A stretch of 64,000 nt of DNA from Paraspadella gotoi (Eukaryota > Animalia > Chaetognatha). The position numbers and the translations under genes are program-made. The notes under the pieces were generated by a model that worked only from the letters and a program-made list of their open reading frames with translations, was not told the DNA's origin and searched no databases. The stretch lies in assembly GCA_051294375.1 (NCBI GenBank), contig CM119263.1:10996703-11060702 (forward strand), read 5' to 3'. Position 1 is the first letter of the stretch; every line of letters begins with the position of its first letter. Of this stretch, positions 10,817-16,225 are shown piece by piece.

Positions 10817-13800
10817 TCAGGGCTTCCACAATTTCAAGATTCCGTCTTCGCCGTATGTAGCGATGAGGTTATTGTGCGGGTGGTGACAAATACCGATGAC
10901 ATCTTTTTCATGCACGGGTAAAGTTCGTTCTAGTTTGCCTGTTGGGTGATAAATAATCGGTAATCGCGCTGAAGAATAAAATTATCATTTCATTTCATTC
11001 CTCGATGAAAATTTATAATTCTTTGGAAAATTATACACAACAGTTTAAATTAAATAGTAAAAAATTGGTAGAACTGCATGAGAACATGTTTGTATTTTTA
11101 TTTTTTAAAAAATCCCTTATTTATCGGTAATTAATTAATAAATAATAATTAATTAATAATAATTAATTTATTCAAGTTAATTATTTAATTAATTATGCAA
11201 TTAATATGATCCTAAATGTTTGTTTTGATTAACTGATTAATTAATTATTAATTAATTGACTAATTGATTAATTAACTAATTAATTATTTGATTAATTAAT
11301 ACATCTTGCATTTACATTTAAAATAAAAAAGAAAAAGAAGCATAATCAATTAGTGAAACAGGTTCTTTGTTTTTTCCATTTAAACTCATTTCCATTCAAA
11401 CGATTCCATTGAAACTTGATTTCCAGTTTAATCACACACTTTTTACCCAAATACAAAATTTCAAGTCAATCGCCCCATCCACTCATGAGTAATTGGTGTT
11501 CAAATAGTGAAATATTTTTTTTGTTTTTTCCATTTCTCATTTCACTCGGACGATTCATCGAAACTTCATATCCAGCTCAATCACACACTTCCTACCCACA
11601 CACAAAATTTCATTCCAATCCAACCATCCAATCACGAGTAATTGGTGTTTTTTGCTAAGGTGGGACGGACGGACGGACGGACGGACGGACATCGTTTTTT
11701 TTGCATAATTTATCATAATTCGATGTTCTGACATGATATAAGTGAATGCCCGACAAGATGAGGGGGCGGACCGACGGACCGACAAAGTGAATTATAGAGT
11801 CGGATCTGCTGAAAGCAGATCCGACTAAAAATTGTTTTATAAATAAAACAAATGAGTACAGGAATATAAAACAAAATTTAAAAGACCTCAATGATGAGAA
11901 GCCATATCTAAATTTTCAGCTTCCTATGGTTATACACTTGAGCTATTTTCTATGTTAAAACAGCGTGACGACGACCATGAATATGGTCAAAAAAAAGCAG
12001 AGAAACGAATTAACATCTCGCCCAAGTCGGGCATTCCCATCTGGCAAGATAAAAAAATTAAAAAAACTTAAATTGGCATTTAAAATAAATCCTACCCGAA
12101 TCGGATTTGCTGCCCTTAAGAGCCTTATGGGTAATTTGGGTATACTATAAGATTTATATGTTTCAGAGATGGCACCTTTTTGTTTCTTTCACATCCTTTC
12201 TGCCCTACCGTGTGAAAACAAAAGGATCTAAACAAAACACTAATAACAGATAACTGCTACTGGGGTTCAAAAAACTCACCCGTGGAGGTAGAGAAACAAT
12301 AGAGAGTCAGATCCTCGCCGACGCAGTAAATCCATTCACCCCGAGGCGAAACCGAACACGTGACGAAGTCACCGCCTTCACGTTTTCCAGATGTGAAAGA
12401 TCGAACAATTTGGCCCTAATAGAAACATATAACGGAAAATATATAGTGATCGTTATATAGTAAATCGTTTATAAATTTACAAATGATTACTTTTTTCAAT
12501 AGTATCAATTAATAATTATTCTATAAATATGAATAATGATTTTAAAAATCAAAATATCAGTTCTAGTACTTTATTGAAACCGGCTTTGAAATATAATCAC
12601 CGACCCCTATGAGAAAAAAAGATCCCGTGCCCTGACTGGGCTTCACTCGCTCTTCCTCTTTGGCCGCTCTTCTCTCCCTCACTTACCCCGAAGCCCCATT
12701 CATGCACGAATCTTGTCTATAAGGCATGCTGGGAGCCTCTTCATTCCCTCTGGCTTTTCTTCATTCACGCATAAAGGAAAGGATTAAACTAACGACTCGA
12801 TCCTTGGTCTCCGCTTTTACATCGTTGGCCCAATTTTGGCTTCTCTCTCTCGCAGCTTCAACCGAACCCTAAAACCCCGCATTCTGTAAACATTCGATTA
12901 AAAAGCTGATTCTGTCACATTTAACTTTAAAACATCAAATCAAAAACAAACTAAAGGGAAAAAATGTACGAGAAATATCGACAACTACTATTAGTTTTTT
13001 ATCTTTCCACTATCGATGCATTCGATATGGCCCAGCCAACGCGCCCGCGTTGGGTTCGCATACAACCCGGCGTTGAACCAGTCTATTCGGGCAGGGGAGA
13101 AACTGTTATGTTTCGAAGCAGCGTTTCACAGGGCGCTGCAAAGCCAGGAGTGGCGTTGACAACAGACTGGAACATCCTCGCAGTTTCTCCAGAAGGGATT
13201 TGTGGCTATGACGTATACGACAATCCGGCGAATCACCCCGTGGAAAAAATGTTCACCGTCTGCCAAGAATATTCTGGCAGTGGACGCGGAGTGATCTATT
13301 TAACTAAATGGGGCGCCGAAGCCCTTGGACACGTTCCGGACGGCACCACGTTCACTTTAGACATCATGGCTTCGTCATGTAAATCGGGACTAAAAGTCGG
13401 TGCTGTTGTGATCGTTACCGTCGGCGATGAAGAATCGAATAGGGAGAGCGAAGTCAAAGAATTTCAAATCACTCAATCGCACAACGAAATTTTACCTCAC
13501 GAACACACCGTGTCAAAGAAGCACAGAAAACACCACCACAAATTTCGGTCCTCAGAAAATATGCCAATGGAACTACATTATCGTAAGCACATTTACGTCA
13601 GCTCAAAATCTGTTCCAGTCCGTGACGAGGCGTCCATCAATGAAGCCATCATACAAAAAGAACCGACAACCTTTCAAACTATAAACTTGGCCCTCGGCGC
13701 TAATGCCACTGCTTTCGTCTGCGTTCTCGTCGTGCTTGGTGCCGTTCTTTTTTGGCGACACAGGATGGAGAGCGAACTCAACACCAAGTATGGAAACGGA

Positions 13801-16225
13801 GCAAATAAATCGGCTGAGAAGAATGGCGACTTTGAGCCTGAAGCAGGAAAAGTGAACTTGACACTTAATCCCTTTTTGGACGACTCCTTTTTGAAAAACG
13901 AGGATGACGAGGTAGAGGAAATCGATTTAGAGGAAACTCAAGAACTAAAAGAGTACAACTTTGAAAATGCCTTGCGCCTCACGATATACGATAGCTTCGA
14001 CAACGGGCCAGTCGGAGATGTTGCTCTTGAATGGGACGATGAGATTTGAATCTCCAGTTTTTTTGTTTTTTTTTTCCAAATTCCAGTTCGATCCAATTTT
14101 TTTTTGTTTTTATTTTTGCATGTTATAAATGTGTACAAGTAGTGTTTATATTTGACTTAAAACATTAATGTTGACCCAAATATACTTTTTTTCTTCAGTA
14201 AAATAAATTTTGTTTAACACGTATATCTGCGGTTTTTATTTTAATTTACCGTCTTGGCGCAAGAATCATACGAGAAGTTTTAATAAAAAAAAAATTCCAA
14301 TTAGCAGCATGTGCTGGCCGTACTGGCGTTACTATTTCTAATAAAAAAGTAGTTCACCTGCATGTTCATGATGGAAACTGTATTACTTCTATTACAGACT
14401 ACAAAATGTTCGGGGTTTTTGGGCAGAGGATGGACTGAGTTGACGGTAATGTCAGCCGTAGATGACGATCCGAAGGATTTAAACGTCGTCACGCATTCTG
14501 ATTTTTTCAAAAATTACCATAACAGAAAAAGATTGTAAAAAGATTGCATGATGGTTTTTTACTCGCCCGTAGTCTTGGTGTTCCAAATCTTAACAGTGCC
14601 GTCCGAACTAGCGCTGATGATATTGTGTCCATCTGGGCTAAAAATTGCTTCATTCACAAAAGACGTATGACCGCGAAACTCTTTCAAAGTCTTTCCAGAT
14701 TTAAGACCGTGAATGCGAATAGTCTGAAAACGTAATTCGTAAGTAGAAATAAAAGGTGTAACTTTTATTCTGCATATGCTACAGCTAACCTGATCGAAAG
14801 AAGCGCTGAGTAACTGAGCATTGTCTTTGGAAAACGTAACACAGGTCACCCCTTTGGAATGGGCTCGTTCAAATCTTCTTAGACATTGTCCTGATTGTAT
14901 CTTCCACACTAAAACAAACGTATTAGGCATATGCAACCTGCCCTATCTGTTCGTTTTTGAAATCTCTCATCCAACCTTTGATCTTCCCGTCCTGGCCTCC
15001 GGTGGCTAACATCTCCGAGTCTCGGGAGAAGCACATACAGAGGACAGCGTCATCCATCATCATAAAGTTTTCTTGCGCCTGATATTTTAAATCCTTTCGA
15101 ATCTTTCCGGTCGTGAAATTCCAGACTTCGATAAATCCGTCGACAGAACCGGTGACAAGGAATTGGCCGTCGGGAGAAAACCTTCAAAATGGGACTCGAT
15201 TACTCTTTCTAAAACAGTACATACTGCGGCATTTGCGGGATCAGAAATTTCTAATTATAAACATAAAACCATAAAAAATACAAAGAATGACTGTTTTCAT
15301 TTGTGAACTCAGACCTGGCACACTCGACGTGTGCCTTGGCACCAAATTTGATCGTTTTTCCCAGTTGCGTAGGGAACTTTTCTTCTTCCTGTTCCTTGAT
15401 GGCCGCTTTGCCACGGAAAAGATCGATAGTGGTTCCGGGAGGCAATAGTCCCTGGTGCTGTTGCCATTTGAGAGCTTGTCCCAACAGAGCGAGTAGTCGA
15501 GAGGGTGGCACCACGCTGACTTCGCCAGACAACGCTTGCGCAATGGCCGATCGGCGCTTTTCCTATGAATCCGATGGAATAAATTACAATCACTCCATTA
15601 ATATTATTATTTCTTACAAACGTTCTCTTTACGAGGGCAGATATTGCAAACACATATTTATTTACCGTATATATAATTTTTTATACTAAAGTGACCAAGA
15701 ATTAGATATCTTCATTCTTCATGGGAGCTTACCTTGGAATGACCTTCTTGATATGCTTCCCTCGGATCAAAGTAACTCCTCGCCAACAAGTTTTCCAAGT
15801 GAACGTATCTATCGGGAAAGTTCTGTTTAAGTTTAATCATAGGGTCTGTTTGTCGCAACAACGAGCGAGCAGCTCCCAGCTCTCTTAGCTCGATCAACTC
15901 CAACACAATCTGTTCGTAAAGATCTATTAAAGTTTTTTCGGGAAGTTTGAGATTTTGAATTGCTTGAAGGACGATATCCCAATGACCGTTGTGGATCTCG
16001 GACATGAAGCCTTATAATTGAAGACAAATGATTGACATTAAATGTAAGAATAAATCATCTAAATGTTCGTAGAAAAACGGACCACTTACCTTCAATGGAA
16101 TCTACGGTGTTAAGGGAAATTGCAGATTCCTCTTGAAGCACATTAAGAGTTCGCACTAAGTTGCTTTCCTTGAGATACTGTTGGATCAGCCGAACCACGT
16201 CAGCCGACTCTATCTCGACCGCCAT
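10817..16225 (-). CDS. SMU1: WD40 spliceosomal protein SMU1. Exons 16225-16090, 16010-15733, 15562-15315, 15181-14976, 14908-14790, 14723-14567, 14497-14358, 12415-12280, 10938-10817
   Basis: [81 protein letters not shown] and C-terminal [22 protein letters not shown] are highly conserved SMU1 sequences. All junctions keep frame; one is GC-AG. Confidence 0.96.
11270..12055 (+). mobile_element. Non-autonomous dispersed repeat, Helentron/DINE-1(HINE)-like, in the last SMU1 intron
   Basis: 11270-11830 matches 21727-22110 in reverse complement, and 11885-12055 matches 25121-25300 in reverse complement. Contains a (GGAC)n microsatellite and two tandem ~150-bp core units with aaatttca....aatc motifs. 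Confidence 0.55.
12964..14049 (+). CDS. Intronless calsyntenin-like type I membrane protein (one cadherin-like domain, TM helix, acidic tail with LEWDD), nested antisense in SMU1 intron 12416-14357
   Basis: Signal peptide ([12 protein letters not shown]); cadherin-1-like blocks [57 protein letters not shown]; tail LTLNPF, acidic run, terminal LEWDDEI. Confidence 0.8.
   Translation: MYEKYRQLLLVFYLSTIDAFDMAQPTRPRWVRIQPGVEPVYSGRGETVMFRSSVSQGAAKPGVALTTDWNILAVSPEGICGYDVYDNPANHPVEKMFTVCQEYSGSGRGVIYLTKWGAEALGHVPDGTTFTLDIMASSCKSGLKVGAVVIVTVGDEESNRESEVKEFQITQSHNEILPHEHTVSKKHRKHHHKFRSSENMPMELHYRKHIYVSSKSVPVRDEASINEAIIQKEPTTFQTINLALGANATAFVCVLVVLGAVLFWRHRMESELNTKYGNGANKSAEKNGDFEPEAGKVNLTLNPFLDDSFLKNEDDEVEEIDLEETQELKEYNFENALRLTIYDSFDNGPVGDVALEWDDEI

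What the first reader, a model, noticed from the sequence alone, without database searches (positions are those of the whole stretch)
12964..14049. Miniature calsyntenin-like gene, intronless and nested antisense inside SMU1
Seen: a 361-aa single-exon ORF with signal peptide, TM helix and acidic tail, lying wholly within the 1.94-kb SMU1 intron on the opposite strand. Recalled calsyntenin/alcadein matches: EPVYSG~EPTYHG, GICGYD~EICGFK, SGRGVI~[16 protein letters not shown]~[19 protein letters not shown]~ATVHIQVND, LTLNPF~ITVNPM (X11/Mint-binding NP motif) and LEWDD (W-acidic kinesin light chain-binding motif). Canonical calsyntenins are ~950 aa with two cadherin domains, an LNS domain and two W-acidic motifs. 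Here cadherin 2, the LNS domain and the first W-acidic motif appear lost, and the Ca-binding DxNDxxP linker is degenerate. Inference: a retroposed, internally deleted paralog retaining kinesin-1 cargo-adaptor function.
Basis: partly seen in the sequence, partly recalled or inferred. Interest (0 to 1): 0.8.

Follow-up and report, generated by a model that had tools for sequence, protein, structure and literature searches.

The report
Shrunken calsyntenin-type gene inside SMU1 intron
An uninterrupted 361-codon gene lies backwards inside an intron of the splicing-factor gene SMU1 in an invertebrate animal and belongs to a small unnamed family of membrane proteins that are likely cut-down descendants of the neuronal cargo receptor calsyntenin, predicted to keep one cadherin-fold domain outside and a tail that would hook vesicles to the motor kinesin-1.

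Summary
A 361-aa ORF (12964-14049, +) lies inside a 1,942-nt SMU1 intron (12416-14357, -) that a spliced RNA contig skips; the same run holds an unspliced 1,496-nt contig over the ORF (strand not shown). Residues 23-159 model well (pLDDT 84) as one cadherin-fold domain without calcium motifs. Five relatives turn up among 1.84 billion representatives; three have a complete member with the same layout. All four with a tail show W-acidic motif, NPF, acidic stretch, C-terminal W-acidic motif, the order published for calsyntenin-1. Only the window's copy lost the first W-acidic motif. Descent from calsyntenin is inferred from fold plus tail motifs; no search returned a calsyntenin, and it fails the two-cadherin and LNS tests. 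Retroposition is unsupported: no parent could be sought (no genome), no insertion scar above chance. Likely a kinesin-1 cargo receptor; the family-wide NPF-acidic motif may add an EHD/RME-1 link. No earlier scan note and no paper found. New variant of a known kind.

The parts
12964..14049 (+). Single uninterrupted ORF, 361 aa, calsyntenin-type membrane protein
   Evidence: relatives
12964..13020 (+). Probable signal peptide, aa 1-19 (read by eye)
   Evidence: sequence; hydropathy; similar N-termini in P0003, P0012
13030..13440 (+). One cadherin-fold domain, aa 23-159, with an extra N-terminal beta-hairpin (aa 29-41), conserved Cys80 and Cys139, no calcium-binding motifs
   Evidence: AlphaFold2 pLDDT 83.8; Foldseek E 8e-6; VIA Z 11.7, rmsd 3.0, 107 aligned; motifs
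13441..13677 (+). His-rich, Cys-free, poorly conserved stalk, about 80 aa (157-270 aa in relatives)
13690..13758 (+). Transmembrane helix, about aa 243-265, with family-invariant G245 and N247, followed by basic residues
13858..13875 (+). LTLNPF (aa 299-304): calsyntenin NP-motif equivalent; NPF followed by acidic residues in all 5 tail-bearing lineages
   Evidence: papers
13957..13983 (+). Second conserved tail element (N332, L339, T340 invariant), function not known
14026..14040 (+). LEWDD (aa 355-359): C-terminal W-acidic motif, Trp four residues from the end in all 5 lineages
   Evidence: identical core to the calsyntenin-1 WD2 peptide in PMC6224480
12569..14064 (.). Unspliced 1,496-nt contig of RNA run X9 covering 395 nt upstream and the whole ORF; strand not shown
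12416..14357 (-). Host intron of SMU1, 1,942 nt, GT..AG
10817..16225 (-). Host gene SMU1 (coding span)

Best explanation
The ORF encodes a single-pass membrane protein of a small unnamed animal family that is likely descended from calsyntenin by an old internal deletion and likely works as a vesicle cargo receptor for kinesin-1. Shown: an intact ORF nested antisense in a SMU1 intron; relatives with the same layout; a tail in the order W-acidic, NP, acidic, C-terminal W-acidic in the relatives, with the first W-acidic motif missing in this copy. Predicted: one cadherin-fold domain without calcium sites on a flexible His-rich stalk. Inferred mechanism: the protein enters the secretory pathway; in the vesicle membrane its C-terminal LEWDD binds the TPR domain of kinesin light chain and so recruits kinesin-1, more weakly than two-motif relatives (as for mammalian alcadein-beta); the LTLNPF strand binds a sorting adaptor, either a Mint/X11 PTB domain as in calsyntenin or an EH domain; the lone cadherin-fold domain selects a luminal cargo or partner without calcium, and LNS-dependent functions are gone. 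How the gene came to sit in SMU1 (retroposition or DNA-level move of an already intron-poor gene) is open.
For: Five relatives at E <= 0.001 among 1.84 billion representatives (best 1.6e-34); complete members in 3 of the 5 clusters (P0002 639 aa, P0003 472 aa, P0012 504 aa) with 36-44% identity over the domain. 4 of 4 tail-bearing relative lineages have both W-acidic motifs with NPF between them. The published calsyntenin-1 layout is WD1 891-900, NP, acidic 909-957, WD2 962-971 at the C-terminus (PMC5739299 passages); its peptides read EMDWDD..ALTITVN and QLEWDD (PMC6224480 passages), against ALRVTLNP and LEWDD in the family. Minimal KLC-binding consensus L/M-x-W-D/E is met by the query's motif; single-motif alcadein-beta binds KLC1 more weakly; one WD motif is described as sufficient to recruit kinesin-1 (PMC3414480 passages). 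All 50 listed top VIA matches are cadherin-family or cadherin-like domains. In 200,000 shuffles of the tail, a terminal W-acidic motif plus the NP strand occurred at 5e-6 (post hoc test). A run with 7 spliced SMU1 junctions also holds an unspliced contig over the ORF, with 3 differences: 2 silent, 1 Glu to Asp. Ectodomain-less CASY-1B/C work as motor adaptors in C. elegans (PMC5864096 passages; PMC8920508 section 12).
Against: No search returned a calsyntenin or a cadherin family by sequence: Pfam gave no significant hit for the query or relatives, and the three protein searches and the representative search returned only the unnamed family. The link therefore rests on fold plus short motifs; a W-acidic motif alone arises in 4.8% of tail shuffles. 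The fold match does not single out calsyntenin among cadherins. The query is on a long branch (3.07) and lost the first W-acidic motif, so its kinesin binding could be weak. In C. elegans, deleting the LNS domain abolished CASY-1 function in learning (PMC12125631), so this protein cannot simply do what full-length calsyntenin does. RNA evidence is one run of contigs, found with this stretch, strand unknown; DNA or pre-mRNA in the library is not excluded (a 345-nt intronic piece of the neighbouring gene is present at depth 5.8 against 19 for the ORF).
Confidence: 0.68

Rival explanations
1. This short form is the lineage's only calsyntenin: the ortholog itself shrank and no full-length gene remains, so it is a reduced ortholog, not an extra paralog.
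For: No full-length calsyntenin was seen in the window (tblastn of 9 family proteins against the window hit only this locus); the short architecture is shared by several divergent relatives.
Against: The window is only 64 kb and no genome is held; calsyntenin ectodomains are conserved from worm to human (PMC3414480 passage) and LNS is needed for learning in C. elegans, so wholesale loss is less expected.
Confidence: 0.1
2. A recent retrocopy of an intron-bearing short family member, now relaxing or decaying in this genome.
For: No intron in the coding region or the 395 nt upstream; nested antisense position; longest-but-one branch in the 5-row tree; loss of the first W-acidic motif; relative P0005 stops matching after about residue 141, as a frame running into an intron would.
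Against: ORF without frameshift in contigs of 5 samples including the possible source; signal, domain cysteines, TM Gly/Asn, NPF and terminal motif all kept at 35-45% identity; the one 12-nt flanking repeat is at chance level (1 observed, 1.5 expected); complete ORFs of relatives were called from single contigs of 2.4-6.1 kb, compatible with an old intronless state (or with transcripts).
Confidence: 0.1
3. Not calsyntenin-derived: an unrelated single-cadherin-like membrane protein (dystroglycan- or sarcoglycan-like layout) that gained kinesin-binding motifs by convergence, or a chimera of a calsyntenin tail with another cadherin domain.
For: No sequence-level hit to calsyntenin; ESM Atlas leads under 0.9 point to dystroglycan-type cadherin-like and other Ig-like proteins (leads only); W-acidic motifs occur in unrelated cargo adaptors such as SKIP.
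Confidence: 0.1
4. A chance or non-coding open frame in an intron.
For: No Pfam or PDB sequence hit; first near-length search empty.
Against: 364 stop-free codons against a maximum of 207 in 1,000 shuffles; relatives at E 1e-34; confident fold.
Confidence: 0.01

Closest known systems
Calsyntenin/alcadein family (CLSTN1-3, C. elegans CASY-1A, 984 aa)
   Same: Type I membrane protein, cadherin fold outside, tail with W-acidic / NP / acidic / C-terminal W-acidic order (relatives), LEWDD core identical to the CLSTN1 WD2 peptide.
   Different: One cadherin-fold domain with an extra hairpin and no calcium motifs, no LNS, His-rich stalk, NPF instead of NPM, an extra conserved tail element, one W-acidic motif in this copy, no introns in the coding region; no detectable sequence similarity in these searches.
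C. elegans CASY-1B and CASY-1C (167 and 160 aa)
   Same: Short calsyntenin forms that act as motor adaptors through TM plus tail.
   Different: They are isoforms of the casy-1 locus and lack all cadherin repeats; this is a free-standing gene that keeps one cadherin-fold domain.
Mammalian CLSTN3beta
   Same: A lineage-specific short calsyntenin product that lost the ectodomain and took on a different role (PMC7546853 passage).
   Different: Shares two exons with CLSTN3 and has a new N-terminus; not a separate duplicated gene, no cadherin domain.
Alcadein-beta (CLSTN3) tail
   Same: Single WD motif, weaker KLC1 binding (PMC5739299 passages).
   Different: Full ectodomain retained.
EHD1 partners with NPF-acidic motifs (MICAL-L1, Rabenosyn-5, Rabankyrin-5)
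   Same: NPF followed by acidic residues (PMC13282721 passages; family motif).
   Different: Those are cytosolic scaffolds; binding here is untested and the query has Leu directly after NPF.

Membership tests
Calsyntenin/alcadein | Type I single-pass membrane protein with signal peptide | tested here: met
   One TM peak (2.3) at aa 244; signal read by eye; same in complete relatives
Calsyntenin/alcadein | Two tandem cadherin repeats | tested here: not met
   One domain, aa 23-159; the remaining 80 aa before the TM are too few for a second repeat and are not conserved
Calsyntenin/alcadein | LG/LNS domain | tested here: not met
   No room: 80-aa Cys-free stalk
Calsyntenin/alcadein | W-acidic kinesin-light-chain motif(s), L/M-x-W-D/E | tested here: met
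   One in the query (aa 355); two in 4 of 4 tail-bearing relative lineages, one of P0003's with Phe at the first position; consensus
Calsyntenin/alcadein | NP motif followed by an acidic region | tested here: met
   NP at 302; 35% Asp/Glu from there to the end; 29-40% in relatives
Calsyntenin/alcadein | Significant sequence or profile similarity to a calsyntenin | tested here: inconclusive
   No calsyntenin returned; no reference sequence or structure was available for a direct comparison
Calsyntenin/alcadein | Binds KLC TPR and Mint PTB; neuronal expression | not testable with these tools
Cadherin superfamily | Cadherin-repeat fold | tested here: met
   Foldseek 96 matches at E <= 0.001, listed rows all cadherin-type; VIA Z 11.7, rmsd 3.0, 107 aligned
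Cadherin superfamily | Calcium-binding linker motifs (DxNDN, DxD, LDRE) | tested here: not met
   None in the query domain; one isolated DxD among 5 lineages
Retrogene | Intronless coding region | tested here: met
Retrogene | Intron-bearing parent gene in the same genome | not testable with these tools
   No genome held
Retrogene | Poly(A) relic and target-site duplication | tested here: inconclusive
   One 12-nt near-repeat in the flanks, 1.5 expected by chance; longest downstream A run 10 nt, not next to that repeat; old events lose such marks

The most novel reading that the evidence does not exclude
An undescribed animal gene family split off from calsyntenin, kept one calcium-free cadherin domain, and turned the Mint-binding NP motif into an NPF-acidic ligand for EHD/RME-1, making a single membrane protein that couples recycling-endosome fission to kinesin-1 transport; this member then moved into a SMU1 intron and dropped to one kinesin site.
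Probability: 0.2. Interest if true: 0.72.

Novelty: new variant of a known kind. Interest (0 to 1): 0.52.

Why it matters
Calsyntenins are usually described as a single conserved gene in invertebrates with a fixed ectodomain, and whether their adhesion and motor-adaptor roles can be separated is debated. A natural, free-standing family that keeps one cadherin-fold domain and the motor tail but no LNS is the combination that C. elegans domain mapping found redundant for learning (cadherins and kinesin sites) while LNS was essential. It offers a natural experiment on which parts serve trafficking, and a one-site versus two-site comparison for kinesin-1 activation within one family. It is invisible to Pfam and sits inside another gene's intron, so annotation would likely miss it. 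The scope is modest: one small family in unidentified invertebrates, with no function yet tested.

Tried and rejected
Pfam: no significant family for the query, relatives or sub-regions. PDB by sequence or profile: nothing relevant. No calsyntenin entry appeared among listed fold matches; whether the library holds one is not known, so this is no evidence. Near-length word search found none of 3,597 candidates; the profile search returned only 3 already known members among 7,994 scored. Single-sequence AlphaFold2 of the full protein was uninformative (pLDDT 38.5). Viral origin, prompted by Atlas leads to herpes glycoproteins at 0.83 or less, was rejected: BFVD matches are weaker (best E 2e-4, rmsd above 11 for the top three) than cadherins. 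JGI metagenome scans found no locus of a relative (0 of 137 and 0 of 84 candidates), so synteny and intron state of relatives are unknown. No RNA holder is listed on record; X9 is treated as RNA because its contigs are spliced. X9 has no cover at 14214-14354 of the intron and runs X10 and X11 (other organisms) laid nothing on the ORF at 80% likeness; neither blank is used as evidence. The 3' end of the X9 contig falls at a T run where DNA contigs also stop, so it does not mark a transcript end. A flanking 12-nt repeat as target-site duplication was rejected as chance. A TATA-like site near 12718 lies inside the RNA contig and was not pursued. The 5-row domain tree has no supported branch. Rfam found nothing in 9000-18000. 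Earlier scan notes: nothing relevant. Paper searches for such a truncated paralog or a gene nested in SMU1 returned 0 papers or 2 unrelated listings; the library lacks most subscription papers. No complex prediction was run because no kinesin light chain, Mint or EHD sequence was available.
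Full report
Observation. The frame 12964-14049 on the plus strand gives 361 residues with no stop. It is far longer than chance: 1,000 shuffles of the intron gave at most 207 stop-free codons against 364. The minus-strand exons on either side are SMU1: two exons match human SMU1 at E 5e-44 and 1e-48, and one matches C. 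elegans SMU-1 less well (98 against 151 bits), so the organism is an animal with a slowly evolving SMU1; I did not place it further. The intron is 12416-14357, 1,942 nt, GT..AG. A 1,736-nt contig of run X9 skips exactly this intron and six more, which shows both that the run holds spliced RNA and that the ORF is wholly intronic. No genome is held for the window.

Expression and integrity. X9 also holds a 1,496-nt contig colinear with 12569-14064, without gaps, at depth 19. It differs at three places: two silent, one Glu to Asp. Contigs show neither strand nor level, the run was found with this stretch, and an intronic piece of the neighbouring gene appears at depth 5.8, so this fits transcription but does not prove it. 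Contigs of five samples (X1, possibly the source, and X4, X6, X7, X9) cover the ORF with no listed frameshift.

Relatives. Pfam and PDB sequence searches were blank, as was the near-length word search. The longer-length search gave one hit, P0002 (E 7e-23), and the full HMMER scan of 1.84 billion representatives gave five (E 1.6e-34 to 6e-4). Cluster look-ups gave complete members for three of the five clusters: P0002 (639 aa), P0003 (472 aa) and P0012 (504 aa); P0005 holds only the N-terminal part and P0006 only the C-terminal part. None is named beyond 'hypothetical protein'. The alignment shows one layout: signal, a conserved 130-residue domain (36-44% identity to the query), an unconserved His-rich stalk of 80-270 residues, a TM helix with invariant Gly and Asn, and a tail. 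So the short architecture is an old family trait, not an accident of this locus.

Fold. With a six-row alignment, residues 23-159 modelled at pLDDT 83.8, pTM 0.79. Foldseek's listed matches are all cadherin-type (best E 8e-6; 96 at E <= 0.001). VIA-align against 48,161 chains ranks protocadherin-15 first (Z 11.7, rmsd 3.0, 107 aligned), and all 50 listed rows are cadherin or cadherin-like (same picture). Viral structures match worse. Canonical calcium motifs are absent. Eighty residues remain before the membrane, too few for a second repeat or LNS.

Tail. In 4 of 4 relative lineages with a tail the order is W-acidic motif, LRVT(L/T)NPF, acidic stretch, W-acidic motif with the Trp four residues from the end. 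PMC5739299 (passages) gives the same order for alcadein-alpha, the minimal KLC consensus L/M-x-W-D/E, and weaker binding for single-motif alcadein-beta. PMC6224480 (passages) lists calsyntenin-1 peptides containing EMDWDD..ALTITVN and QLEWDD, which match the family's ALRVTLNP and LEWDD. The query keeps NP, the acidic stretch (35% Asp/Glu) and LEWDD but not the first motif. A lone W-acidic motif is common by chance (4.8% of 200,000 shuffles); the joint arrangement is not (5e-6, a post hoc test). Two features are new: NPF followed by acidic residues in 5 of 5 lineages, where calsyntenin-1 has NPME (PMC10820826 passages), which is the preferred ligand type of EHD1's EH domain (PMC13282721 passages); and a second conserved element at 332-340.

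Mechanism. Most likely (0.68 for the whole chain) a vesicle cargo receptor: LEWDD recruits kinesin-1 through the light-chain TPR (one motif is reported sufficient, PMC3414480 passages; affinity about 50 uM for a single alcadein peptide, PMC3314626 passages), the NP strand binds a sorting adaptor, and the cadherin-fold domain picks a luminal partner without calcium. Precedent for ectodomain-poor forms: CASY-1B/C (PMC5864096 passages; PMC8920508 passages and section 12) and CLSTN3beta (PMC7546853 passage); these are isoforms of the parent locus and keep no cadherin repeat. In C. elegans LNS deletion abolished function in learning while cadherins and kinesin sites were redundant (PMC12125631, part 1 of 2 of the text), so the short form should not replace full-length calsyntenin. 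C. elegans is described as having a single ortholog (PMC2654071 passages). All binding steps are inferred.

What goes against, and what stays open. By defining features it is not a canonical member: two cadherins and LNS are not met. Retroposition is not shown: no parent could be sought, the only flanking repeat is at chance level (1 observed, mean 1.5 in 30 shuffles), and relatives' complete ORFs come from single contigs of 2.4-6.1 kb, which fits an old intronless state or transcripts; P0005, whose match ends near residue 141, may run into an intron. Loci of relatives were not found, so nesting in SMU1 may be specific to this lineage. The query's long branch and lost motif leave room for relaxed function. 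Supplementary alignments of calsyntenin tails in the cited papers are image files and were not seen.

Novelty. Searches of the paper library for a truncated invertebrate calsyntenin paralog or a gene nested in SMU1 gave 0 papers or unrelated listings; listings showed no title describing it. The scan's own notes hold nothing on it. Verdict: new variant of a known kind, interest 0.52.

Noticed in passing
window 14498-14566 (-): A 69-nt SMU1 intron with a GC donor (GC..AG), skipped by the X9 contig.
   Followed up: partly
window about 11100-12200: A very high-copy dispersed repeat with GGAC-type runs sits in the next SMU1 intron (summed contig depth up to about 1.5 million in X1); a similar element appears near 21700-22000.
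   Followed up: no
window 16152: The SMU1 contig of X9 leaves the genome inside the first coding exon with a 30-nt loose end whose first 22 letters are not in the window; may be an assembly chimera.
   Followed up: partly
window 16280-17040 (-): RNA contig pieces of the upstream WD40 gene (TAF5L-like by recall; WD40) reach to within about 55 nt of the SMU1 start codon, leaving little room for a SMU1 promoter.
   Followed up: no
window 2811-3701 (-): A 296-codon stop-free frame with no significant Pfam family.
   Followed up: no
window 30788-31174 and 35865-36248 (-): Two near-identical frames about 5 kb apart on either side of an N gap: a local duplication or assembly artefact.
   Followed up: no
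window 12609, 12702, 12726: Three upstream ATGs lie in the 395 nt covered by the RNA contig before the ORF start, and a splice-acceptor-like pyrimidine tract ends near 12856.
   Followed up: no
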